A DNA stretch of 64,000 nucleotides from an uncultured Bacilli bacterium (GCA_947628565.1 CANRAH010000002.1:29525-93524), one strand, 5' to 3'. Shown: positions 9,757 through 20,618, counted from the first letter of the stretch. Numbers and translations: made by a program. The notes: a model not told the origin generated them from the sequence alone.

Positions 9757-11323
9757 CATATCCTCCAATATATTTATTTAATTTTTTATCTTTTAATTCT
9801 ACTATATTAGTAGCTATTTTATTTATAAAATATCTATCATGCGATACAAAAAGTATAGTTCCATTAAAATTAATTAAAGCATTTTCAAGTATTTCACGTG
9901 TATCAATATCTATATGATTAGTTGGTTCATCTAGTATTAAAAAATTATATTTATCTTGAGTTAAACAAAATAGTTTTAATCTTACCTTTTCTCCACCAGA
10001 TAAGTACTTAATTTTTTTATGTATATTTTCACCAACAAATAAAAATTTAAATAGGGCTGATCTTAGATATTCCTCTTCTCCAATAAAATATTTTCTAGCT
10101 TCTTCAAGGATACTTATATTATCATTTTCAAATATTATTTCTTGAGGTATATATCCTAATATTATATTGCTTCCAAGCTTAATACTAGGATTACCCTTTA
10201 ATATTTCTTTTATTAACGTTGATTTTCCTGTCCCATTATCACCAACTAAACAAACTTTTTCTTTATAGTATAAATCAAGGTTAGCATCATCAAATAAAAC
10301 TTTATTACCAAAACTTAAATTTAAACTATCTATTTTTAATACATCTTTACCTGTCCTTAAATCACTATTAAAATCTATATTAATAGTTTTTTTAGTTTCT
10401 GGCATATCCAATTTTTCTAGTTTTTCTAATCTTTTTTTTATGCTAGCTGCTCTTCTAAAAAATATCTCGCCTCCAGTTTCTCCACAAAGTTTGCCAAATT
10501 CTTGTAATTTTTTAATAGCCCTTTTCATAGCTTCTATTATCTTCTGTTGATCTTTATATTTTTTAAATTCTAGCATAATTCTATTTTCATTTTCTTTTAT
10601 AAAATATGTATAATTACCAAAGTATATTTCTAATCCTCTTTTAGTAAGTAATATTACTTTATTTACAACTTTATCTATAAAATATCTATCATGGGAAACC
10701 AAAATTATTGTGCCTTTATAACTTTTTAAATAATTTTCAAGCCACTCCATTCTTTTTATATCAAGATGATTAGTTGGTTCATCTAAAATAAGTACATCTG
10801 GTTCTATTAACAGTAATCTTATTAAAGAACATATAGTTTTCTCTCCTCCAGATAGTGTATTAAAATTTCTTTGTAACATTTGATCAGTTATATCAAAAGC
10901 AGATAAAACCTTACTTATTTTTGTTTCAAATTCATATCCACCAAGTCGAATAAATTCATCTTGTATTTGTGTATATTTATTAATTACTTTAATATCACTA
11001 CTTAAATTATTTTCTAATTTCTCTAATTTTTCTTTTAATTCCAATAAATTTTTAAATGTATCATAAATATATTCTTTAACTGTTTTATTTTCATCTACTG
11101 GTATTTGGCTTAAATATCCAATAGTAATATTCTTTCTAATTGATATATCTCCACTACTTGCGTTTTCTATGCCTACAATAAGTTTTAAAATCGTACTTTT
11201 ACCACTACCGTTTGAGCCAATCAAAGCTACTTTTTCACCTTTATTTATAGTTAAATCAATATTATTTAAAACTTTGTCAAATCCATAAGATTTACTTACT
11301 TTATTTAAATTTATATCTATCAT
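9731..11323 (-). CDS. ABC-F family ATPase preceded by a leader-peptide attenuator
   Basis: Walker A motifs GSNGSGKST and GDNGTGKST; signatures LSGGEKTIC and LSGGEKVRL. The start is most likely ATG 11323 (MIDINLNK). The ORF is open to 11341 but that stretch abuts the leader T-run. Confidence 0.9.
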   Translation of the reverse strand: MIDINLNKVSKSYGFDKVLNNIDLTINKGEKVALIGSNGSGKSTILKLIVGIENASSGDISIRKNITIGYLSQIPVDENKTVKEYIYDTFKNLLELKEKLEKLENNLSSDIKVINKYTQIQDEFIRLGGYEFETKISKVLSAFDITDQMLQRNFNTLSGGEKTICSLIRLLLIEPDVLILDEPTNHLDIKRMEWLENYLKSYKGTIILVSHDRYFIDKVVNKVILLTKRGLEIYFGNYTYFIKENENRIMLEFKKYKDQQKIIEAMKRAIKKLQEFGKLCGETGGEIFFRRAASIKKRLEKLEKLDMPETKKTINIDFNSDLRTGKDVLKIDSLNLSFGNKVLFDDANLDLYYKEKVCLVGDNGTGKSTLIKEILKGNPSIKLGSNIILGYIPQEIIFENDNISILEEARKYFIGEEEYLRSALFKFLFVGENIHKKIKYLSGGEKVRLKLFCLTQDKYNFLILDEPTNHIDIDTREILENALINFNGTILFVSHDRYFINKIATNIVELKDKKLNKYIGGYDEYKNKYK

Positions 11324-11339
11324 ATTATCACATCCCATC

Positions 11340-11373
11340 AAAAAAACTATACAAGTTTACACCTGTATAGTTT
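11340..11373 (-). terminator. Leader (attenuator) terminator immediately upstream of the ABC-F start
   Basis: On the minus strand, AAACTATACA-ggtgtaaact-TGTATAGTTT is followed by a run of 7 Ts that ends at the start-codon region. Confidence 0.65.
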
Positions 11374-11382
11374 AAAATCTAT

Positions 11383-11493
11383 TACAGATGTAGGCACGAT
11401 GAAAACTCACACCTACATCTTAAATTTTTTAGGATGTAAGTGTGATACTATTTGTATACATGATCTTCTTACCTACATAATTCATAGTATCAC
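11383..11493 (-). promoter_or_regulatory. Chain of mutually exclusive leader hairpins (attenuator control region)
   Basis: GTGATACTAT/ATAGTATCAC pair over 10 bp. CACACTTACATC/GATGTAGGTGTG pair over 12 bp. GATGTAGG/CCTACATC pair over 8 bp. TACATCTGTA/TACAGGTGTA pair over 10 bp, and this last pairing invades the terminator 5' arm. Confidence 0.6.
11429..11485 (-). CDS. Leader peptide uORF, 18 codons (MNYVGKKIMYTNSITLTS)
   Basis: The ATG lies about 10 nt after GAGG. The ORF spans the first two hairpin arms, and its stop codon lies 10 nt before the next arm. Confidence 0.5.
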   Translation of the reverse strand: MNYVGKKIMYTNSITLTS

Positions 11494-11506
11494 TTCCTCT
11501 ATCGAT

Positions 11507-11535
11507 AATATATTACAAAATTTAAAAATTGTCAA
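11507..11535 (-). promoter_or_regulatory. Sigma-A type promoter of the ABC-F leader
   Basis: On the minus strand: TTGACA-N17-TATATT. Confidence 0.55.
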
Positions 11536-11581
11536 TATTTTAACTATTTATCTTTTTTATTAATCATTTAATTTATAAATT

Positions 11582-12376
11582 TTATATTCTTGCACTCATC
11601 AAGTTTCCTGATGAATATCTTTTAAGTCCTCTATAAAATATATAAAAAGCTATTAAAACTACAAGTATTGTATACCCTATTACTATTAAAAAGTTAACTA
11701 TATTAAATGATTTAATAATATGTAATGGAATATATGATGAAAATCCTATAGGTAAAATTGTATAAAATAATATCTTGATTATACCCTTAAATATTCCATC
11801 TGGGTATGTATCAAAATTAAGCATCGTACTTGTAATTGAACTTGTAATAGTATCTGCTTTAGTTATGTAAAATGCAAGAGATGAAAATATTACTGCAATT
11901 GACGCAATTACTATTCCACCTGTTATTATAAATAATGTGAATAAAATAATATTTTTTATGTTTATTCCATATATGAAGATAAGTACATATCCATAAATTA
12001 AATCACCAAGTGCGGATACTTTGGTCTTTGATGATAATATACTTATAAGTACATTTTTTGGTTGAACTAAAAATGAATCGATTTTACCATCCATTATTAG
12101 TTTTGGCAAATCTTGAATTGCTCCAAAAAATATATAACATATTGCATACGTTCCACTTGCAATTGCCCAAAGAAGAATAATATCTTTAAAATTATATCCA
12201 CCTATATTATTTTTTAAACTATAAAATATAATCCACTCTACAATAAAAGAAGCATTATTTAAAATCATAAATATTATATTTGTTAAAAATGTTATTTTGT
12301 TAGTCATTTCACGAGCTAAATTGTATTTAACATTCAACAACATAAATTTTAATTCTTTTTTAATCTCCATTAACAT
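11582..12376 (-). CDS. ABC-2 type transporter permease (operon 1, second permease)
   Basis: 264 aa with about 6 predicted TM helices. It overlaps the upstream permease by 17 nt and is a paralog of 16357..17130. Confidence 0.75.
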   Translation of the reverse strand: MLMEIKKELKFMLLNVKYNLAREMTNKITFLTNIIFMILNNASFIVEWIIFYSLKNNIGGYNFKDIILLWAIASGTYAICYIFFGAIQDLPKLIMDGKIDSFLVQPKNVLISILSSKTKVSALGDLIYGYVLIFIYGINIKNIILFTLFIITGGIVIASIAVIFSSLAFYITKADTITSSITSTMLNFDTYPDGIFKGIIKILFYTILPIGFSSYIPLHIIKSFNIVNFLIVIGYTILVVLIAFYIFYRGLKRYSSGNLMSARI

Positions 12377-13148
12377 TTAATTTTTTCACTCCTTTTCTAT
12401 AAATCAAACTTAGTAAAATTATAACAAATATTAAATATAGTATTTGAGCCATTAATATTGTAAAAAATGAATTCATACTAAAATCGATAACTAACTTACT
12501 AGGTCCATAATTTACCACATATATTGGAGTAAATTTTAGTATTGGCTGTAAAAATTTTGGAAATAATTCAATTGGAAATACCGTTCCTATAACAAGTATT
12601 ATTTTATCATATAACCAATGAAAAGGAGCTGCATCTTCAACATAAAAAGATAGCATACTTATAATTATTCTAATACAAGCATTTATTATAAATGAAAGCA
12701 AAAATACAGGAATTAACATTAGTATATTTGACATATTAAAGTCAATTGGTCCAACAAATATTAATCCTACAGCTATAGCAAGTATTAAATAAAATAAGAA
12801 TTTAATTGTAATTTCACCAAAGTTTTTAACAATTACATAAATAGCATAACTATATGGTTTATTTAATGTATAAGCTATACTTCCACTTTTAATATCATCA
12901 GTTATCTGATTAATTAGAGTTTTATTGCGAGTTCCAAACCAAATCATTTCAGTTATTATTACATACCATATCATTTGACTTTTAGAAAATCCTTCAATCA
13001 AACTAGATGGATCATCATACATATAATTCCAAAGATTTAAAAATATAAAAATCATTACTACGAAAGATAAAAAACCTAATATTATATCTGATATATACTG
13101 TAATTCATTTATTAGCGTTACTTTATAAATATTTAAATATTTTTTCAT
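12360..13148 (-). CDS. ABC-2 type transporter permease (operon 1, first permease)
   Basis: 262 aa and polytopic. It overlaps the ATPase stop by 4 nt and is a paralog of 17132..17935. Confidence 0.75.
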   Translation of the reverse strand: MKKYLNIYKVTLINELQYISDIILGFLSFVVMIFIFLNLWNYMYDDPSSLIEGFSKSQMIWYVIITEMIWFGTRNKTLINQITDDIKSGSIAYTLNKPYSYAIYVIVKNFGEITIKFLFYLILAIAVGLIFVGPIDFNMSNILMLIPVFLLSFIINACIRIIISMLSFYVEDAAPFHWLYDKIILVIGTVFPIELFPKFLQPILKFTPIYVVNYGPSKLVIDFSMNSFFTILMAQILYLIFVIILLSLIYRKGVKKLNVNGD

Positions 13149-14131
13149 TTTTCTCCCTTATAAATACTTTTTATAATGTCTTCAAGAGGAACATTAGATA
13201 TATTTATATCTATAATATTGTTTGCATCTATCAATTTTAAAGCATCGCTAATACTGGTTTTCTTAGTATCTACTTCAAGTTTTAAATTATAACCTTTATC
13301 TTTCAAAATTGTAATTCCTTTAGAATCATCTAAATTAACTTTTTCTTTCATTTTTAATTCAATTATTTTTTTATTTAGATAATGATATTTTAAATTTTCC
13401 ATAGAATCATCTAGTACAATTTCACCTTTATTTACAATTATAACTCTTTTACAAAGTTTTTCTATATCACCAACATCATGACTTGTCAAAAATATAGTAG
13501 TTTTATATTCTTTATTCATTCTTTTTATAAGAGTTCTTATATTCTCTTTAACTATTGGATCAAGTCCTATTGTAGGTTCATCTAAAAAAAGTATCTTTGG
13601 ATCATGTATAAGCGAAGCTACTATTTCACATCTAATTCTTTGCCCTAGGCTCAAATTTCTAACTGGAGTATTTATAAATTCATCAAGTTCAAATATTTCT
13701 TTAAATTCTTTTATTTTTTTCTCTATTACACTATTTTCTAAATCATAAATAGAACCAAAAAATTTAAAATTATCATATGGTGTTAGATGAGTCCAAAGTT
13801 GCTCTTTTTGTCCGAAAACGCATCCAATTTCATATGCAAGTTTTTTACGCTTTTTATTAGGATTAATACCCATAACATTAATAGTTCCTGAATCGTTATA
13901 AAGTATTCCCGTAAGCATCTTTATTGTTGTTGATTTTCCTGCACCGTTTGGTCCTATAAAAGCAATTATTTGCCCTTTTTCTACGTCAAATGAAATATCT
14001 TTAACTGCTTCTATTTTTTTATATTTAGGTTTTATTAATGATTTTATACTTCCTATAAATCCTTTTTCTTTTTCTTTTACTTTAAAAGTTTTACATAAAT
14101 TTTTAACTTCTATAACATTCATTTTTATCAC
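13145..14131 (-). CDS. ABC transporter ATP-binding protein (operon 1)
   Basis: Walker A GPNGAGKSTT, signature LSLGQRIRC, Walker B ILFLDEPT. SD AAGGAG lies 8 nt upstream. Confidence 0.9.
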   Translation of the reverse strand: MIKMNVIEVKNLCKTFKVKEKEKGFIGSIKSLIKPKYKKIEAVKDISFDVEKGQIIAFIGPNGAGKSTTIKMLTGILYNDSGTINVMGINPNKKRKKLAYEIGCVFGQKEQLWTHLTPYDNFKFFGSIYDLENSVIEKKIKEFKEIFELDEFINTPVRNLSLGQRIRCEIVASLIHDPKILFLDEPTIGLDPIVKENIRTLIKRMNKEYKTTIFLTSHDVGDIEKLCKRVIIVNKGEIVLDDSMENLKYHYLNKKIIELKMKEKVNLDDSKGITILKDKGYNLKLEVDTKKTSISDALKLIDANNIIDINISNVPLEDIIKSIYKGEK

Positions 14132-14166
14132 TCCTTATTTTAAATAAATTTTCATACCCATAAAAT

Positions 14167-14249
14167 AAAACGACGAAAATCACTAAAATGTGACTCCGTC
14201 ATCGACGTGTAGGATTAGTTTCCCTATGTAGCTTCAATACATACTCACA
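14167..14249 (-). promoter_or_regulatory. Riboswitch-like element, copy 2 (aptamer 14189-14249 plus terminator 14167-14200)
   Basis: UGUGAG-[UAUGUA..UACAUA]-GGGAAACUAAUCCUACACGUCgauGACGGAGUCACA. The GACGGAGUCAC segment can alternatively pair with GUGAUUUUCGUC, which is followed by UUUU. Confidence 0.6.
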
Positions 14250-14280
14250 ACAAACTCTATTAGTAAACTACCATATATAC

Positions 14281-14367
14281 AAAAAATACGTAGTCTACCT
14301 AACAGTGACTCCGTATTTACGTGTAAGATTTCTCCCAGGGCAGCTCGTTACCTTATGCCCTCTCACT
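14281..14367 (-). promoter_or_regulatory. Riboswitch-like element, copy 1 (aptamer 14304-14367 plus terminator 14281-14318)
   Basis: AGUGAG-[AGGGCA..UGCCCU]-GGGAGAAAUCUUACACGUaaaUACGGAGUCACU. The AAAUACGGAGUC segment can alternatively pair with GACUACGUAUUU, which is followed by a U-run. Confidence 0.6.
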
Positions 14368-14374
14368 AATCTAT

Positions 14375-14402
14375 ATTATACATAGAAATATTTTTTTGTC
14401 AA
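14375..14402 (-). promoter_or_regulatory. Consensus sigma-A promoter driving the tandem RNA elements
   Basis: On the minus strand: TTGACA-N16-TATAAT. The -35 begins 8 nt after the helD stop. The predicted transcription start site (TSS) falls at the first base of copy 1 stem P1. Confidence 0.7.
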
Positions 14403-14409
14403 GTACACT

Positions 14410-16347
14410 TTAAAATTTTATTATCAATTTATGAAGCGCTCTTGTCATTGAAACATATAAAAGTTTCATATCAAGTATATTATTTTTATCATAACTATTT
14501 ATATTTGTTATAATTACAGAATCAAATTCTAAACCTTTAGACAAATAACTAGGTAATATATTTATACAATTATCAAAATTCATATTAAAGGAGTCAATCA
14601 AATTAACATTTATTTTATTTTTTATTTCATTATATATATCTTCACTTTCTTTTTTAGTATTAGTTATAATTGCAATACTCTTATATTCAGAAGATAAAGA
14701 TTTAAGTACATTTAATATAGATTCTTTAGTATATTCAACTTTACTACCATGTCTTATAACTGGTATCGCTAAATCAAGATTAAGTAATTCGTTAATTTTA
14801 TTTGCTTCATTCATAATTTCTATTGTGGTACGATAGCTTTTATTTAATTTAAGTATTTCATAATTGTTAAATACATTTTTTAATATATCCCAAGATTCTA
14901 TACTTCTATATGGATAAATACTTTGAGCTAAATCACCATATATACTAAATGTTGCATTTTTAAATAATTTCTTTAAAATATAAAAACTAAATATTCCATA
15001 ATCCTGTGCTTCATCTATTACAATATGTTTAAAATTATCATAAGTGTTTCCTGTTATTTTATATTTAATATACATAAGAGGATATATATCTTCATAATCT
15101 ATTTTATTTTGTTTTATATTCATAATATCAATATTATTATCAGTTAAAATATTTATATATATATCTTTTATACTTGCATTCAAAACTTTAAAATATTTTT
15201 TTAAATGCAAAATTGAATTATTTTTAAATTCGTCTATTATTTTTTTTTCTGTTTTGTTTTTAATTAACTTAGAAAGTATTTTATCATTATTATCTTGTAT
15301 ATATTTATCAAGCAAAAGAATTAATCTATCTATTTTACTTTTAACACTTTTATATATTTTTTTATCTATTTCATCATATATGTTTTTAATGACACTCAAA
15401 TTTAATATTTTTACACCCTTTATATTGAAATCATCTTTAGGTAATATTTCTAAATTTTTAAAATAATCATCAATTTTATTTTTAAGTGTCAAAGATGTTT
15501 TAAATTTCGATATTTCATCAATAGACTTTAATATATCTAATTTACTGTTTACATCATAAGTATCTTTTATATAATCATTAAATAGTTCTATTGGAGTATA
15601 CTCTTTTACCCCATTTACATCAAGATCTGGTAAAACACTTGATATATAATTTACAAAAAATTTATTTGGACCTATTACCATATAATCACTAGGTTTATAT
15701 AAAGTTCTATAATTGTATACTAAATACGCTATTCTATGAAGTGCGACCGTTGTTTTTCCACTACCTGCAACTCCTTGAACAATTATGTTTTTTGTAATTG
15801 TTTCTCTTATTATTTTATTTTGTTCACTTTGAATAGTTGATACTATATTTTTAAGTCTAGAATCAGCGCTTACACTTAGATATGGTTTTAATAATTCATC
15901 ATTTGACACTGTATCTACGTCATTAAAACTTATAAGTTTACTATCTTCAATTGTATATTGCCTTTTTAATAGTAGTTTACCATTTATTATTTCATCGTCT
16001 GTTTTATAACTTGCATCTCCCACATTTGAATCATAATAAAGACTTGATATTGGAGCTCTCCAATCAACTGTTATTATATTATTATCATAATCACTAACGC
16101 CAAGTCTTCCTATATAACATACATCTTTATTAGTGCTACTTTCAAAATCAACTCTAGCAAAATATGGACTTTTTTTAGCTTTTAAAACAGAATTTACAAG
16201 TCCTTCAAGTCTTATTTTTTCCTCCATCATTTCATCATAATTGTTTTTATATATACTTTTCAAATTACTAAGTTTTAATTTTGAATCATCTATAACTTCA
16301 TCATATTTATCTAACGTATACGATAAATGTTTTATCTCTTCATCCAT
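14410..16347 (-). CDS. helD: HelD-type (helicase IV-like) UvrD/Rep superfamily 1 ATPase, RNA polymerase-associated
   Basis: 645 aa. N-terminal CYIGRLGV...VDWRAPISSLYYD, Walker A GVAGSGKTTVALHRIAYL, IDEAQDY, and C-terminal LYVSMTRALHKL. The GGAGG SD overlaps the stop of the upstream permease. Confidence 0.8.
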   Translation of the reverse strand: MDEEIKHLSYTLDKYDEVIDDSKLKLSNLKSIYKNNYDEMMEEKIRLEGLVNSVLKAKKSPYFARVDFESSTNKDVCYIGRLGVSDYDNNIITVDWRAPISSLYYDSNVGDASYKTDDEIINGKLLLKRQYTIEDSKLISFNDVDTVSNDELLKPYLSVSADSRLKNIVSTIQSEQNKIIRETITKNIIVQGVAGSGKTTVALHRIAYLVYNYRTLYKPSDYMVIGPNKFFVNYISSVLPDLDVNGVKEYTPIELFNDYIKDTYDVNSKLDILKSIDEISKFKTSLTLKNKIDDYFKNLEILPKDDFNIKGVKILNLSVIKNIYDEIDKKIYKSVKSKIDRLILLLDKYIQDNNDKILSKLIKNKTEKKIIDEFKNNSILHLKKYFKVLNASIKDIYINILTDNNIDIMNIKQNKIDYEDIYPLMYIKYKITGNTYDNFKHIVIDEAQDYGIFSFYILKKLFKNATFSIYGDLAQSIYPYRSIESWDILKNVFNNYEILKLNKSYRTTIEIMNEANKINELLNLDLAIPVIRHGSKVEYTKESILNVLKSLSSEYKSIAIITNTKKESEDIYNEIKNKINVNLIDSFNMNFDNCINILPSYLSKGLEFDSVIITNINSYDKNNILDMKLLYVSMTRALHKLIIKF

Positions 16348-16356
16348 AAATACCTC

Positions 16357-17130
16357 CTAACTTCCTGTACTTGAATATTTTTTTATTCCTTTATAAAATA
16401 TAGCTATTGATGGTATTAAATAAATAACAGTTATTAAAGGAGAAATTATTAATAACTTATTATCAGATTTGCCTAGTAAATATAATAAAGGATAATAATT
16501 TACAAATCCAAAAGGAATAATAAACGTAAAGAATGTAACAAATCCTTTTTTAAATATTCCTATTGGATATTGAGCCATATGCTTAGATCCATCTGTTAAA
16601 ATATTTCTTACTTCCAAACCTTTAACCGTAAAAAAGCAATATGAAGCAGTTAAAATGAATATGGATAAAAATATTAATACAGAGCTTATAAGCATAAAAA
16701 TTAAAGTTATTATTTTATCAATACTAAAAGTTATATCTATATTTATTAAAGTAATTATAAGAACTATTATAGATTGAAGTAATCTAGATAATTTAATCAA
16801 ACTTATTTGTTCACAAAATGCTTGCATTAAAATATTTCTAGGACGTAGTAATAATCTATCAAAATTTCCATAAACTATTAAATCATCGAATTTATCTAGC
16901 CCTCTAAAAAATGTTTCACAAAACGCAAATCCAAATTGTATTATTCCAAATGTAAGTAATACTTCATAAACAGTAAATCCTTTTATATTTGAAAATTTTG
17001 AAAAAAGACTAATGATAGTAAAATAATATCCAAAAAACACAAAAAATTGCGATATAAAAGACATAATAAATGACATTTTATATTCAAGCTCACACTTAGT
17101 GTGAATTTTAAAATATTTAAAATATAACAT
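16357..17130 (-). CDS. ABC-2 type transporter permease (operon 2, second permease)
   Basis: 257 aa and polytopic. One nt separates it from the upstream permease. Confidence 0.75.
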   Translation of the reverse strand: MLYFKYFKIHTKCELEYKMSFIMSFISQFFVFFGYYFTIISLFSKFSNIKGFTVYEVLLTFGIIQFGFAFCETFFRGLDKFDDLIVYGNFDRLLLRPRNILMQAFCEQISLIKLSRLLQSIIVLIITLINIDITFSIDKIITLIFMLISSVLIFLSIFILTASYCFFTVKGLEVRNILTDGSKHMAQYPIGIFKKGFVTFFTFIIPFGFVNYYPLLYLLGKSDNKLLIISPLITVIYLIPSIAIFYKGIKKYSSTGS

Positions 17131-17131
17131 T

Positions 17132-17935
17132 CTAACCTCCTTGCACTACTACTCTTTTTAATGCTTTATTTGTAAGAGTTTTACCTAAGATAAATAAAAT
17201 TAATATCCATATTATTTGCATACCAAGACTTATAAATATTTCATTAAAATCAATATTTCCTACATATAATCTAAATGGAAAATCACTTATGTATCTAAAT
17301 GGAAGTATATTTGATATATTTTGCATAAATTTTGGAAAAAATGGTACTGGTATAACAAGACCAGATAATATATCTGCTATTACCATAAATATATTTACTA
17401 CTCCCCTTTCATCTAAAGTAAATAAGCATATAACATGGTATAAGCATACAAGTACTGTCATAAGAATACTTGAAAATATCATTGATACAATAAATAAAAG
17501 TAGTCTAAATGCTGTAATACTTATATCTAAGTTATATGGTTTAGGTAATAATACAGCTATTATTATTACAGGTAAAAATCTTAACGTTACTCTAGATAAT
17601 CTTTCACCTAATATTTTACTACACCACATAAAATATAAATTTTGGGGTCTTAAAAGTTCATATGCAATATTTCCTGTTTTAATCATATTTATAATTTCAC
17701 TATCTTTATACCAAAGATATATAAGAGAAAATAAACTTTGAGACATCCATAAATAACCTACAATTTCATCTAATTCCATTGGTAAGCTTGAATGATTTGA
17801 TTCATAAAAAGCTACATAAACAGATATATATACAAATCCGAAGAAAAATTGAGTCATAATTCCAGCAATGGCTTGAGCCCTATAACTAAGACCAGTTATA
17901 AATTTTAATTTAAAGTATGATATATATGATTTCAT
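17132..17935 (-). CDS. ABC-2 type transporter permease (operon 2, first permease)
   Basis: 267 aa and polytopic. It overlaps the ATPase stop by 4 nt. Confidence 0.75.
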   Translation of the reverse strand: MKSYISYFKLKFITGLSYRAQAIAGIMTQFFFGFVYISVYVAFYESNHSSLPMELDEIVGYLWMSQSLFSLIYLWYKDSEIINMIKTGNIAYELLRPQNLYFMWCSKILGERLSRVTLRFLPVIIIAVLLPKPYNLDISITAFRLLLFIVSMIFSSILMTVLVCLYHVICLFTLDERGVVNIFMVIADILSGLVIPVPFFPKFMQNISNILPFRYISDFPFRLYVGNIDFNEIFISLGMQIIWILILFILGKTLTNKALKRVVVQGG

Positions 17936-18912
17936 ATTTCAAATTCCTCATATAGTTTTATAATTAGATCATCTATATTACTACTTTCTATATCTATATC
18001 TATTATTGAAATTTTTGATGACAAAAGTTTTATAAATTCGTTTATTTCTATCTGTCTTATATCTATTGTGAATTCTATTTTATTATCAAATTTTTTTTCT
18101 TTAACTATATAATTTCTTTTTATATCAATTTTATCTTTAGTCTCTATTGTAATTTTTCTTAAATAATCATATTTTTTCTTCAATTTTGATATTGAACCAT
18201 CATAAAGTATTTTTCCTTTACCAATTAAAATAATTCTTTTACAAAGAGATTCTATATCTTTCATATCGTGTGTTGTTAAAATCACAGTTACATTGTTTTG
18301 TCTATTTATTTTTTTAATAAAATCTCTTACCATTTTTTTAGATACAGCATCAAGGCCAATTGTGGGTTCATCTAAAAATAATACTTGTGGTTTGTGTATA
18401 AGTGAAGCTGCTATTTCGCATTTCATTCTATTTCCTAAACTAAGAAGTCTGACAGGTATATTTAATATATCCTTTAAATTTAATAAATCGATAAGTTCAT
18501 TTAATGTCTTTTTATATTCATTATCATCTATTTTATATATATCTTTCAAAAGATTAAATGAATCAATAGCTGGTATATCCCACCATAACTGACTTTTTTG
18601 ACCAAAAACGGCTCCAATATTTTTTACATATTTTTTCCTATCAACGTTTGGTATTAAATTATTAATTTTAACACTTCCACTATCAGGATTAAGTATGCCA
18701 GAAAGTATTTTTATTGTTGTTGACTTTCCAGCACCATTTGGCCCTATATAGCCAACTATTTCTCCTTTTTTAATAGAAAATGAAATATCATCTATTGCCT
18801 TTATATATCTGTATTTCCTATTAAAAAAGCTTTTTAAAGATCCAATTATCCCTTCTGTTTTTATTGGAACTTTAAATGTTTTTCGTATATGTTTAACCAT
18901 GATGAACGACAT
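17932..18912 (-). CDS. ABC transporter ATP-binding protein (operon 2)
   Basis: Walker A GPNGAGKSTT, signature LSLGNRMKC, Walker B VLFLDEPT. SD GGAAGGAG lies upstream. Confidence 0.9.
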   Translation of the reverse strand: MSFIMVKHIRKTFKVPIKTEGIIGSLKSFFNRKYRYIKAIDDISFSIKKGEIVGYIGPNGAGKSTTIKILSGILNPDSGSVKINNLIPNVDRKKYVKNIGAVFGQKSQLWWDIPAIDSFNLLKDIYKIDDNEYKKTLNELIDLLNLKDILNIPVRLLSLGNRMKCEIAASLIHKPQVLFLDEPTIGLDAVSKKMVRDFIKKINRQNNVTVILTTHDMKDIESLCKRIILIGKGKILYDGSISKLKKKYDYLRKITIETKDKIDIKRNYIVKEKKFDNKIEFTIDIRQIEINEFIKLLSSKISIIDIDIESSNIDDLIIKLYEEFEI

Positions 18913-18931
18913 TTTATCAACTCCTTCCTAT

Positions 18932-19027
18932 AAAGAATCGACAAAATTATAAAAGTTTTATATAACGCAAAAAACCACATATTTATATGTAGTTACCTAG
19001 TTGTTAAAAATAAATTGTCGATTCTTT
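18932..19027. repeat. 13-bp perfect inverted repeat (AAAGAATCGACAA / TTGTCGATTCTTT) flanking a terminator and the operon 2 promoter region
   Basis: The arms lie at 18932-18944 and 19015-19027. One arm ends 6 nt upstream of the operon 2 SD. Confidence 0.6.
18969..18994 (-). terminator. Intrinsic terminator after the FAD oxidoreductase gene
   Basis: On the minus strand, AACTACATAT..ATATGTGGTT is followed by TTTTTT. Confidence 0.65.
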
Positions 19028-19079
19028 GCAAAACGTCCATTCAATTATATTATATTTTTTTTATAATTGCAATACTTTT

Positions 19080-20618
19080 TTAGTTTTTTTCTTCAGAGTA
19101 TACTTTTTCTGTATTTACATTCCATATATTATCTTTAGACTTTATATTATTAACAATATTATTTACTGTTTCAAACGCTGTAATCATAGAATGATCCATA
19201 TTGTTATATCTATGTTGCCCATTTCTTCCTATACAGTATAAATTATCAAATGAGTTTAAATAGTCTTTTAATTTATCAATTTCACTATAAGTATCAAAGT
19301 ATGCTGGATAAGCTTTCTTTATTTTTTCCACATGTGAAGTTATAATGTCCTTTTTATCTATTATTTCCATTTTTAATAATTCATCTATAGCAAACTCAGC
19401 TAATTTTTTATTTGTAGATTTGAAAAATTCATCATTTTCATTACAGCAATATTCTAATCCAATCCACACATTTTTTCTATCATTTACTAAATATGGGCTC
19501 CAATTATTAAATATTTGTATTCTATTTAATTTTACATCTGGTGATTGAACATATATCCAACAATCAGGAATTATATTTCCTAATGTTTTTATTTTTGTTT
19601 CATTTTTTATTTTTAACTTTTTAACAAGTAATCCTACTGTTATGAAATCTCTATATGGTAAATTACTTGCTATATAATTAATTTCATCTGGTGTATCATC
19701 CATACTTTGAATTAAATCTTTAAGTGGCATACTTGATATAAACGTATCAGCTATAAATTCTTCGTCTCCACAAAAAACTGATAAAATTTTGCCATTTTTA
19801 TAATTAATTTTTGTAACTTTATGTTTTTTTAAAATTGTTCCACCCATTTTTTCAAATTCTTTAGCTACTTCTTCCCAAAGTTGACCAGGTCCATATTTTG
19901 GATATAAAAACTGTTCAATTAAAGATGTTTCTACATTTTTACTTTTTATATGAAATAACTTTTTAAACATGTTTTTAATTACTACAAAAATAGATACTCC
20001 CTTAACTCTTTGAGCTCCCCAATCTGCTGATATTTCTTTAGGAGGCCTACCCCAAACTTTTTCTGTATATTTCAAGAAAAACATGCTATAAAGTTTTTTA
20101 CCAAATCTGTTTATATAAAAATTTTCTAATGAATCTTCTTTCTTCTTAAAAAATACAGATTTAATATAACTAAATCCTACTGAGATTGTATTAAAAAATC
20201 CCAGATTTTTTATAGTTTTAATATTCATTTCTATTGGATAATTAAAAAATTTTTTTAGATAATAAATTCTTGATACGCGATTTCTTTTAAGCATAACTTT
20301 ATCACTTAATTCAGGATCTGGACCATTTAGTGGTAAATCTTTTTTTATCTTTAATTTTTTATCATCATATGAATCCTTACCTTGTAAAGGCATAATTTCT
20401 TGCCAAAATTCTAAAACTTTTTTATCCTTTGAAAAAAATCTATGTCCACCAATATCTATCCTATTACCTTTATAATTTATTGTTTTGGATATACCACCTA
20501 TATCATTTGATTCTTCTAATATTATTACTTCATAATCTTTTGATTGTTTTAAAAGTTCAACACCAGCAGTTAATCCAGCTGGCCCTGCACCTATTATTAT
20601 TACTTTCATTAAATTCAC
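19080..20618 (-). CDS. NAD(P)/FAD-dependent oxidoreductase (amine oxidase / UDP-galactopyranose mutase-like superfamily)
   Basis: 512 aa with the N-terminal Rossmann motif [17 protein letters not shown]...[10 protein letters not shown]. Confidence 0.7.

What the first reader, a model, noticed from the sequence alone, without database searches (positions are those of the whole stretch)
14167..14402. Two tandem copies of an unrecognised riboswitch-like RNA, each with its own terminator, controlling an ABC-2 exporter operon
This intergenic region is GC-enriched and lies between the helD stop and the ABC ATPase start. On the minus strand it starts with a perfect TTGACA-N16-TATAAT promoter, and the predicted TSS is the first base of a structured element.

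Two elements of about 62 nt follow, with the same architecture.
- P1 is AGUGA...UCACU in copy 1 and UGUGA...UCACA in copy 2, so the outer pair covaries.
- The P2 hairpin has completely different sequence in the two copies (AGGGCA/UGCCCU versus UAUGUA/UACAUA).
- Both share a conserved GGGARA and a conserved UCYUACA.
- The short P3 hairpin is CGU(A)..(U)ACG in copy 1 and CGUC..GACG in copy 2.
- Both end in an invariant ACGGAGUCAC.

In both copies the invariant 3' segment can instead form the 5' arm of a terminator: AAAUACGGAGUC/GACUACGUAUUU plus Us in copy 1, and GACGGAGUCAC/GUGAUUUUCGUC plus Us in copy 2. Aptamer folding would therefore prevent termination, which is ON-switch logic and fits an exporter induced by a toxic ligand.

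I cannot match the conserved core to the riboswitch consensus sequences I know (glycine, ykkC/guanidine-I, ydaO, TPP, FMN, SAM, purine, fluoride, ZTP, THF, Mn, NiCo). I cannot recall the consensus sequences of the small Na+/Li+ classes, so I cannot exclude those.
Basis: partly seen in the sequence, partly recalled or inferred. Interest (0 to 1): 0.85.

Follow-up and report, generated by a model that had tools for sequence, protein, structure and literature searches.

The report
Tandem new-class riboswitch-like RNA leader
Two back-to-back copies of a previously uncatalogued, strongly conserved folded RNA sit in front of an export-pump operon and most likely switch it on by blocking their own transcription terminators when an unidentified, probably toxic, compound is present.

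Summary
On the minus strand, 14402-14162 contains a perfect sigma-70 promoter, then two ~62-nt elements. Each is followed by an intrinsic terminator whose 5' arm is the 3' part of the element.

The element belongs to a real RNA family. I found about 240 instances in 178 loci, all from uncultured gut and rumen Bacilli MAGs and metagenomes. A covariance model built only from metagenome copies recovers both window copies (68 and 55 bits) and nothing else in the 64 kb.

Its 'GGGARA' and 'UCYU' segments are the two strands of an extra stem. All stems show compensatory changes, and the junction nucleotides are invariant. 234 of 239 evaluable copies have an overlapping terminator, which gives ON-switch logic.

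No Rfam 15 family matches, and I found no paper describing the motif.

Downstream genes are ABC-2 exporters, several GNAT N-acetyltransferase families (closest to AAC(6') and SpeG), and nucleotidyl- and methyl-transferases, Nudix, PNP_UDP and phosphodiesterase genes. This looks like a detoxification and efflux regulon.

The ligand is unknown. Leads are a polycationic amine or xenobiotic, or an alarmone, because ppGpp riboswitches control the same transporter type elsewhere. Direct ligand binding is untested.

The parts
14375..14402 (-). Sigma-70-type promoter: TTGACA (14402-14397), 16-nt spacer, TATAAT (14380-14375). The predicted start is about 14369-14367, at or just before P1 of aptamer 1.
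   Evidence: 12/12 consensus match, the only one in 11000-19500; sequence read. The transcription start is inferred, not measured.
14304..14367 (-). Aptamer copy 1, long-P2 subtype. P1 is AGUGA (14367-14363) with UCACU (14308-14304). P2 is AGGGCA/UGCCCU, with a UAA/GAGC internal loop and a G-GUAA-C cap. P3 is GGGA-GAAA-UCUU (14336-14325). J3/4 is ACA. P4 is CGU-AAAU-ACG (14321-14312). J4/1 is GAG.
   Evidence: R1 75.1 bits. Independent model R2 68.3 bits, E 7e-16. The MFE fold gives the four stems.
14281..14318 (-). Terminator 1. The 5' arm AAAUACGGAGUC (14318-14307) overlaps the P4 3' strand, J4/1 and the P1 3' strand. The 3' arm is GACUACGUAUUU (14295-14284), and the U run extends to 14281.
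   Evidence: Fold of 14275-14366: -25.1 kcal/mol, z = -2.4. Fold of 14275-14330: z = -2.7. Script result.
14189..14249 (-). Aptamer copy 2, short-P2 subtype. P1 is UGUGA (14249-14245) with UCACA (14193-14189). P2 is UAUGUA/UACAUA with loop UUGAAGC. P3 is GGGA-AACUAA-UCCU. J3/4 is ACA. P4 is CGUC-GAU-GACG. J4/1 is GAG.
   Evidence: R1 61.7 bits. R2 54.5 bits, E 3e-12. Fold.
14162..14203 (-). Terminator 2. The 5' arm GAUGACGGAGUCAC (14203-14190) overlaps the P4 3' strand, J4/1 and the P1 3' strand. The 3' arm is GUGAUUUUCGUCG (14183-14171), followed by UUUUAUUUU.
   Evidence: Fold of 14160-14210: -15.0 kcal/mol, z = -3.6, 0 of 200 shuffles as stable.
14120..14136 (-). Ribosome-binding site AAGGAG (14136-14131) and the ATG (14122-14120) of the first regulated gene.
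   Evidence: Sequence. The 325-aa product starting at this ATG is identical to database protein P0001 and to called genes on 11 contigs.
11582..14122 (-). Regulated operon: ABC ATPase (14122-13145), then two ABC2_membrane_6 permeases (13148-12360 and 12376-11582).
   Evidence: Pfam PF00005 (3e-30) and PF06182 (4e-16, 3e-28). NCBIfam drrA subfamily, 241 bits, below its cut-off. The same gene trio follows the motif in 75 of 76 genome loci.

Best explanation
The region is the 5' leader of the ABC-2 exporter operon. It holds two tandem members of an uncatalogued riboswitch-like RNA class that acts by transcription attenuation.

Each unit is a ~62-nt four-stem junction: P1 GUGA/UCAC, a variable P2, P3 GGG../..CYU and a short P4. 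The junction nucleotides are invariant: G after P1, ACA(C) between P3 and P4, and GAG between P4 and P1. The P2 apex carries a conserved U(AA)...AGC.

The last ~12-14 nt of each aptamer (P4 3' strand, GAG, P1 3' strand) are also the 5' arm of an intrinsic terminator. By default the more stable terminator forms, and transcription stops near 14281 or 14165.

When a ligand stabilises the junction, P1 and P4 hold that segment, the terminator cannot form, and RNA polymerase reads on. This is an ON switch. Because the two units are in series, both must be ligand-bound for read-through. That should lower the basal level and sharpen the response.

The ligand is most likely a harmful small molecule that the regulon removes by efflux and group-transfer modification, mainly N-acetylation. 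A polycationic amine (polyamine or aminoglycoside-like) or another xenobiotic is the first guess. A nucleotide alarmone such as (p)ppGpp is the second.

What is shown: the sequence family, the fold with covariation, its position and strand relative to genes, and the overlap with the terminator. What is inferred: ligand binding, ligand identity, the transcription start, and the kinetic benefit of the tandem arrangement.
For: Family and fold:
- Model R1 finds 110 copies in 76 of 80 loci that carry an orthologous ATPase, all on the gene strand.
The model matched in 102 of them, with 129 copies in all.
- Structure counts on the MAFFT alignment A1: 96.4% of cells paired, against 25-43% when partners are slid. 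P2 is 100% paired with 6 of 6 pairs covarying, and P3 is 100% paired.
- Counts on the metagenome set A3: 95.3% paired, 15 of 19 pairs with double changes, covariation score 0.446 against 0.18 in shuffles.
- RNAalifold independently recovers P1, P2 and P3.
- P1 changes are compensated in L013 (AACGA/UCGUU) and in L067/L072 (UAAGA/UCUUA). P4 alternates between CG..CG and CAA..UUG.

Expression platform:
- 234 of 239 evaluable copies are followed by a hairpin plus U tract. In 227 of them the 5' arm starts inside the aptamer.
- In the window, the terminator folds are more stable than the aptamer folds.

Regulon:
- In the 102 metagenome loci, ABC-2 genes follow the motif in 39, GNAT in 36, phosphodiesterase in 10, PNP_UDP in 6, nucleotidyltransferase in 4, methyltransferase in 2 and Nudix in 1.
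- The nearest solved relatives of one GNAT are AAC(6') and SpeG.

Tandem pairs occur in 45 of 178 loci. ppGpp riboswitches control natA-like + COG3694 + COG4587 ABC operons in other Firmicutes (PMC6003355).
Against: - No binding or transcription experiment exists, and the ligand is unknown.
- P1 is only 4-5 bp and nearly invariant. Its pairing rests on a few compensatory events, and its sequence could instead be read by a protein.
- All members come from a fairly narrow group of uncultured gut Bacilli, so some sequence invariance may reflect shared ancestry.
- The regulated genes are heterogeneous and include several families of unknown function, so no single metabolite is clearly indicated.
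- The columns AGCU, GRG, YUACAC and GGAGUCAC are invariant in the metagenome set by construction of the search pattern.
Confidence: 0.7

Rival explanations
1. The same cis-acting antiterminator RNA is read by a trans-acting macromolecule rather than a small molecule. An RNA-binding protein, or another RNA, would bind the junction and stabilise P1 and P4.
For: - P1 (GUGA/UCAC) and the junction residues are almost sequence-invariant, as expected for a protein recognition site.
- The regulon contains small, lineage-specific proteins with no Pfam, NCBIfam or PHROG match that could be regulators. Examples are the 'LGYPMDELGTYLYK' family and a ~150-aa family.
- No ligand can be named.
Against: - No candidate protein gene accompanies the motif consistently. 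Most loci have only the three ABC genes downstream.
- A compact multi-stem junction with invariant junction nucleotides and freely varying stems is the usual signature of metabolite aptamers (established knowledge).
- Known protein-dependent antiterminator targets such as RAT, the PyrR site and the TRAP site are simpler.
Confidence: 0.2
2. The two units are primarily genes for small terminated RNAs (~85 nt) that act in trans, and control of the downstream operon is incidental.
For: Each unit ends in a strong terminator, so short stable RNAs should accumulate in the OFF state. Terminated riboswitch RNAs acting in trans are known (established knowledge, e.g. SreA in Listeria).
Against: - All ~240 copies lie immediately upstream of, and on the same strand as, a limited set of genes.
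- Only copy 1 has its own promoter in the window.
- The terminator always overlaps the conserved 3' segment. That overlap is what a switch needs, and a stand-alone sRNA does not.
Confidence: 0.05
3. The leader is a ribosome-stalling (leader-peptide) attenuator that senses translation-inhibiting antibiotics, as is usual for resistance genes in Firmicutes.
For: The neighbourhood is rich in resistance-type genes: HelD, and a ribosomal-protection ABC-F that does carry such a leader at 11342-11535. Copy 1 happens to have one stop-free frame.
Against: - 148 of 213 distinct aptamers have stops in all three frames.
- Element lengths are spread evenly over the three residues mod 3 (76/74/63), so the conserved 5' and 3' blocks share no reading frame.
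- There is no Shine-Dalgarno sequence or start context, because the transcript starts at P1.
- Variation is compensatory between helix strands, not synonymous.
Confidence: 0.02

Closest known systems
ppGpp riboswitch (ykkC subtype 2a; Sherlock et al. 2018, PMC6003355)
   Same: It is an ON switch acting on an intrinsic terminator in Firmicutes. A subset controls the same three-gene transporter type, a natA-like ATPase plus COG3694 and COG4587 permeases. That is the family of the window's PF06182 permeases; the Pfam-to-COG equivalence is from my own knowledge.
   Different: There is no match to the ykkC model, or to any Rfam model, at E<=10. The ykkC fold is two coaxial helical stacks of ~100 nt, whereas this is a ~62-90-nt four-stem junction closed by P1. 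GNAT and other transferase genes are not part of the ppGpp riboswitch regulon.
Guanidine-IV (mepA) riboswitch and its orphan variant Gd4v (Lenkeit et al. 2022, PMC9788692)
   Same: Both are terminator-based ON switches. They are associated with GNAT N-acetyltransferases and efflux proteins. Gd4v is enriched in mammalian gut metagenomes and its ligand is unknown.
   Different: Guanidine-IV and Gd4v are two hairpins joined by a loop-loop pseudoknot, and the second hairpin is the terminator itself. Their main genes are sugE/MATE and a transaminase. Here the aptamer is a closed four-way junction, the exporter is an ABC-2 type, and the conserved sequences differ.
Tandem complete riboswitches in one leader (e.g. 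tandem TPP riboswitches of Bacillus anthracis; Welz and Breaker 2007, cited from my own knowledge and listed as ref. 11 of PMC10853860)
   Same: Two full aptamer-plus-terminator units of the same class sit in series in one 5' UTR. Each acts independently, which gives a steeper response.
   Different: The known examples are OFF switches for a cofactor. Here both units are ON switches of an uncharacterised class. The second unit is a short-P2 subtype.
SAM-I riboswitch and its spermidine-sensing variant (Salvail et al. 2023, PMC10853860)
   Same: The aptamer is a four-stem junction with an internal-loop motif in P2. The variant shows that a polyamine can be a genuine riboswitch ligand.
   Different: It has a different sequence family with no SAM-I hit. 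It is larger, has a pseudoknot, and is an OFF switch on polyamine biosynthesis genes rather than an ON switch on acetyltransferase and efflux genes.

Membership tests
Any Rfam 15 family (4227 models, including all curated riboswitch classes and orphan motifs) | Covariance-model score at or above the family's gathering threshold | tested here: not met
   There were 0 hits in the whole window at gathering score. At E<=10 on 14100-14450 the only hit was noise (tpke11, 12.6 bits against 43). No overlapping hits appeared in 11 other loci that carry the motif or orthologous operons, nor at E<=10 on a high-GC member.
ykkC family (guanidine-I, ppGpp, PRPP, ADP/CDP) | Match to the ykkC model, and a P1-P1a-P1b / P2-P3 two-stack architecture | tested here: not met
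   No ykkC hit at E<=10. The covariation-supported fold is a four-stem junction.
Guanidine-IV / Gd4v | Two hairpins joined by a kissing-loop pseudoknot, the 3' hairpin being the terminator | tested here: not met
   The architecture described in PMC9788692 differs from the P1-closed junction found here. No Rfam hit.
Transcriptional ON riboswitch (generic kind) | Conserved structured domain with covariation in the 5' UTR, on the same strand as the regulated genes | tested here: met
   About 240 copies, all upstream of and co-oriented with a recurring gene set.
Transcriptional ON riboswitch (generic kind) | Expression platform: an intrinsic terminator whose 5' arm is mutually exclusive with an aptamer helix | tested here: met
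   234 of 239 copies have a hairpin plus U tract, and in 227 the 5' arm starts inside the aptamer.
Transcriptional ON riboswitch (generic kind) | Direct, selective binding of a small molecule or ion, and ligand-dependent gene control | not testable with these tools
   This needs in-line probing, ITC, transcription termination assays or reporters.
Tandem riboswitch arrangement | Two complete aptamer-plus-expression-platform units in one leader | tested here: met
   The window has two model hits 50 nt apart, each with its own terminator. Tandem pairs occur in 25 of 76 genome loci and 20 of 102 metagenome loci.
Leader-peptide (ribosome-stalling) attenuator | Conserved short ORF with a start context, and reading-frame conservation | tested here: not met
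   148 of 213 aptamers have stops in all frames, and length mod 3 is uniform.

The most novel reading that the evidence does not exclude
This is the founding example of a new riboswitch class, absent from Rfam 15 and from the searchable literature. It would directly sense a toxic compound relevant to the gut: a polyamine or aminoglycoside-like polycation, another xenobiotic, or a stress alarmone. In uncultured, reduced-genome gut and rumen Bacilli it would switch on a whole detoxification regulon of ABC-2 efflux pumps, several N-acetyltransferase families, nucleotidyl- and methyl-transferases and nucleotide hydrolases. Tandem ON units would give a digital response. Identifying the ligand would also assign a substrate to the uncharacterised COG4586/4587/3694 exporter family.
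Probability: 0.6. Interest if true: 0.85.

Novelty: new variant of a known kind. Interest (0 to 1): 0.78.

Why it matters
If this is a true riboswitch, it adds a new aptamer fold and probably a new ligand to the list of RNA sensors. Well-supported orphan classes with hundreds of members have often led to unexpected biology, as with fluoride, guanidine, ppGpp, and Li+/Na+.

The family appears only in uncultivated gut and rumen Bacilli, which explains why genome-based screens missed it.

Its regulon links an uncharacterised ABC-2 exporter family with several GNAT and other modifying enzymes. The ligand would therefore say what these abundant gut organisms need to detoxify, and what the same transporter does under ppGpp control in other Firmicutes.

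The compact aptamer (~62 nt) and its clean ON terminator platform would also be useful as an engineering part.

Tried and rejected
- Known families. Rfam was scanned at gathering and permissive thresholds on the window and 12 other loci, with only noise.
- Literature. Searches by gene family (COG and Pfam names), by sequence strings, and by riboswitch plus GNAT/ABC/gut terms found no description. Gd4v looked promising because it is gut-enriched and GNAT-associated, but its architecture is different. The known spermidine riboswitch is a SAM-I variant OFF switch.
- Viral contigs. The DNA pattern gave two hits and neither matched the model, so there is no phage link.
- Leader peptide. Rejected by the frame analysis.
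- Functions of the unknown regulated proteins. Pfam, NCBIfam, PHROGs and PDB sequence searches gave nothing for the 'LGYPMD', ~150-aa, 268-aa, 288-aa and transglutaminase-like proteins. My impressions that the LGYPMD family resembles the Spo0A C-terminal domain, and that the 357-359-aa proteins have a transglutaminase-like Cys-His-Asp core, rest on reading the sequences only.
- Resemblance of GUGA/UCAC to the 16S rRNA decoding site. Considered and dropped as too short to mean anything.
- A UAA/GAN-type internal loop in P2. This is a resemblance from memory and was not tested.
- Leader of the paralogous ABC-2 operon A (18913-19075). It does not match the model.

Full report
**1. Observation**

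On the minus strand, the 288-nt gap between a HelD-type helicase gene (16347-14410) and an ABC ATPase gene (ATG 14122) reads as the finder described.

- TTGACA-N16-TATAAT lies at 14402-14375. It is the only 12/12 promoter match in the 8.5 kb scanned.
- Eight nucleotides after the -10 hexamer the first element begins (14367-14304). The second element lies at 14249-14189.
- Folded alone, each element forms a closing helix P1 (AGUGA/UCACU or UGUGA/UCACA) around three hairpins.
- Folded with downstream sequence, each forms a hairpin plus U run that uses the element's last 12-14 nt as its 5' arm (z = -2.4 to -3.6).
- The leader is GC-enriched at 0.31-0.38, against 0.15-0.30 in the flanks.
- One correction is needed. 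The fold is therefore a four-stem junction.

**2. It is a real RNA family**

- The ATPase has thousands of close relatives. Fetching 80 loci from species-representative genomes (ATPase 74-88% identical) gave only uncultured gut and rumen MAGs. They are labelled Bacilli, Erysipelotrichaceae, Tenericutes or 'Mycoplasma sp. CAG:877'.
- A simple anchor search already showed the motif upstream of most of them.
- A covariance model from 44 copies (R1) found 110 copies in 76 of the 80 loci, all on the gene strand. It found only the two copies in the window.
- A gene-independent DNA pattern scan of metagenome contigs reached its 120-locus limit. The model matched in 102 of those loci, with 129 copies in all.
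- A second model built only from those metagenome copies (R2) recovers the window copies at 68.3 and 54.5 bits with filters off. Nothing else in the window exceeds 10.6 bits.

**3. Structure**

The consensus from 100 distinct gene-anchored copies is:

n-A-GUGA-G-[P2 6 bp]-U-A-A-g-[P2b]-c-g-AGC-[P2']-GgG-[loop]-CcU-ACA-C-g-[loop]-c-G-GAG-UCAC-u

Evidence for each stem:

- On the MAFFT alignment, 96.4% of cells are paired, against 25-43% when partners are slid. P2 and P3 are 100% paired, and all six P2 pairs covary.
- On the metagenome set, 15 of 19 pairs show double changes.
- RNAalifold independently predicts P1, P2 and P3.
- P1 is nearly invariant, but its changes are compensated in L013 (AACGA/UCGUU) and in the divergent L067/L072 copies (UAAGA/UCUUA). 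In those copies the alternative partner CYUAC is unchanged, which favours P1.
- P4 alternates between CG..CG and CAA..UUG. It lengthens to CGUGG/CCACG or CGCGG/CCGCG in higher-GC members.

There are two subtypes. One has a long P2 with a UAA/GAG(C) internal loop and a capped P2b, as in window copy 1. The other has a short P2 with a 7-10-nt loop ending in AGC, as in window copy 2.

**4. Expression platform and mechanism**

- Of 239 evaluable copies, 234 are followed by a hairpin plus U tract. In 227 of these the 5' arm starts within the aptamer's 3' segment: P4 3' strand, GAG, P1 3' strand.
- The aptamer and the terminator are therefore mutually exclusive.
- The terminator is the more stable fold in the window. 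The default state is termination, and stabilising the junction gives read-through. This is an ON switch.
- Tandem pairs occur in 45 of 178 loci.
- In the window the two units are in series, each with its own terminator, so full-length mRNA needs both to be in the ON state.

**5. What it controls**

Counts below are loci with each gene class downstream of the motif. Gene classes were assigned.

| Downstream gene class | Genome loci (n = 76, biased to ABC) | Metagenome loci (n = 102, gene-unbiased) |
|---|---|---|
| ABC-2 exporter genes | 75 | 39 |
| GNAT acetyltransferases | 22 | 36 |
| 'LGYPMD'-type small protein | 15 | 6 |
| Type I phosphodiesterase-like | 3 | 10 |
| ~150-aa unknown protein | 1 | 8 |
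| PNP_UDP nucleosidase-like | 0 | 6 |
| Pol-beta nucleotidyltransferase | 0 | 4 |
| Transglutaminase-like | 1 | 3 |
| Methyltransferase | 2 | 2 |
| Nudix | 0 | 1 |

- In one metagenome locus (L198) the first ORF after the motif looks like a HelD N-terminus. I judged this from the sequence only.
- The nearest solved relatives of one GNAT are aminoglycoside 6'-N-acetyltransferases and spermidine N-acetyltransferases. NCBIfam hits are sub-threshold to PseH, SpeG, PaiA, AAC(6'), streptothricin and Rim-type enzymes.
- The window neighbourhood is also resistance-like. It holds a paralogous ABC-2 operon plus HelD upstream, and a ribosomal-protection ABC-F downstream. Each has its own, different, structured leader.
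- Together this reads as an inducible efflux and modification regulon.

**6. Ligand**

The ligand cannot be decided by computation. There are two leads.

- Lead (i): a polycationic amine or xenobiotic. This rests on the dominance of AAC/SpeG-like GNATs and exporters, and on the gut and rumen habitat.
- Lead (ii): a nucleotide alarmone. ppGpp riboswitches control the same natA-like + COG3694 + COG4587 transporter operons in other Firmicutes (PMC6003355). HD, Nudix, nucleotidyltransferase, PNP_UDP and phosphodiesterase genes also occur in the regulon.

**7. Comparison with known systems, and novelty**

- No Rfam 15 family matches at any threshold tried.
- Full-text searches found no description of the motif.
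- The closest by function are ppGpp (ykkC-2a) riboswitches, guanidine-IV/Gd4v, and tandem TPP riboswitches. All differ in architecture and sequence.
- It works like a terminator-based ON riboswitch, but it is not a member of any catalogued family. I rate it a new variant (a new class) of a known kind.

**8. Rivals**

- A protein- or RNA-dependent antiterminator is not excluded. The sequence of P1 is invariant, and small unknown proteins occur in the regulon. However, no candidate gene co-occurs consistently.
- A leader-peptide mechanism is rejected. 148 of 213 aptamers have stops in all frames, and lengths are not constrained to multiples of three.
- A purely trans-acting sRNA role does not explain the constant position and the terminator overlap.

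**9. Verdict**

Confidence is about 0.9 that this is a cis-acting termination and antitermination element of a new RNA family. Confidence is about 0.7 that it is a direct ligand-sensing riboswitch. Interest is 0.78.

Noticed in passing
window 11342-11535 (minus strand): The ribosomal-protection-type ABC-F gene (11341-9731) has its own promoter, TTGACA-17-TATATT. Its leader has a 17-codon uORF (MNYVGKKIMYTNSITLTS*) behind a GAGGAAG Shine-Dalgarno sequence, repeated UGUAGGU-type pairing segments, and a 13-bp hairpin plus U run at 11373-11344. This looks like a classic ribosome-stalling attenuator (fold z = -7.2).
   Followed up: partly
window 18913-19075 (minus strand): The leader of the paralogous ABC-2 operon A (which continues into HelD) has a TTGCAA-17-TATAAT promoter. 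An 11-bp long-range helix, AGAAUCGACAA/UUGUCGAUUCU, brackets a hairpin plus U6 terminator. A possible 15-codon uORF is present (fold z = -4.5). It does not match the new motif, and its mechanism is unexplained.
   Followed up: partly
e.g. L048:3693-3810, L036, L044, L051, L052, L056, L059, L035, L039: In a subfamily, (A)GUCGAG immediately 5' of P1 is complementary to CUCGAC(U) just after the terminator's U tract. This helix can form only in read-through RNA and encloses the aptamer plus terminator. Complements of 7 nt or more occur in 46 copies, against 14 in shuffled controls. The feature is absent from the window, and its role (insulation, stability or processing) is unknown.
   Followed up: partly
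L077:3720-3960 and L078:3760-3960: Two Lachnospiraceae-like MAGs lack the motif. They share a different conserved, Rfam-negative leader with a terminator upstream of the orthologous ABC operon (AUGCAUAGCUGCAA..GGAUAUGU..UAUGCAAAAACGGAU.AGG). It may be a second unassigned regulatory RNA for the same transporter. Only two sequences were seen.
   Followed up: no
e.g. L016:3385-3939, L069:3186-3779, L150:312-803, L028:401-1207, L029:2986-3852: Several motif-controlled genes encode lineage-specific proteins with no Pfam, NCBIfam, PHROG or PDB sequence match. One is a 160-205-aa family with the signature LGYPMDELGTYLYK. Another is a 143-163-aa family ending in KKGPVLVKQKSGHFN. There are also 268-, 288- and 306-aa proteins.
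   Followed up: partly
L055:1-4000; L029, L019, L135: Some loci carry arrays of four to five different GNAT paralogues, including HD-domain-GNAT fusions, next to the ABC-2 operon. This suggests a diversified acetylation 'detox island'.
   Followed up: no
window 14189-14249 versus 14304-14367; L058, L061, L114, L138, L176: The second copy in several tandem or serial arrangements is the short-P2 subtype, which lacks the UAA/GAG internal loop and P2b. The two units may differ in affinity or kinetics.
   Followed up: no
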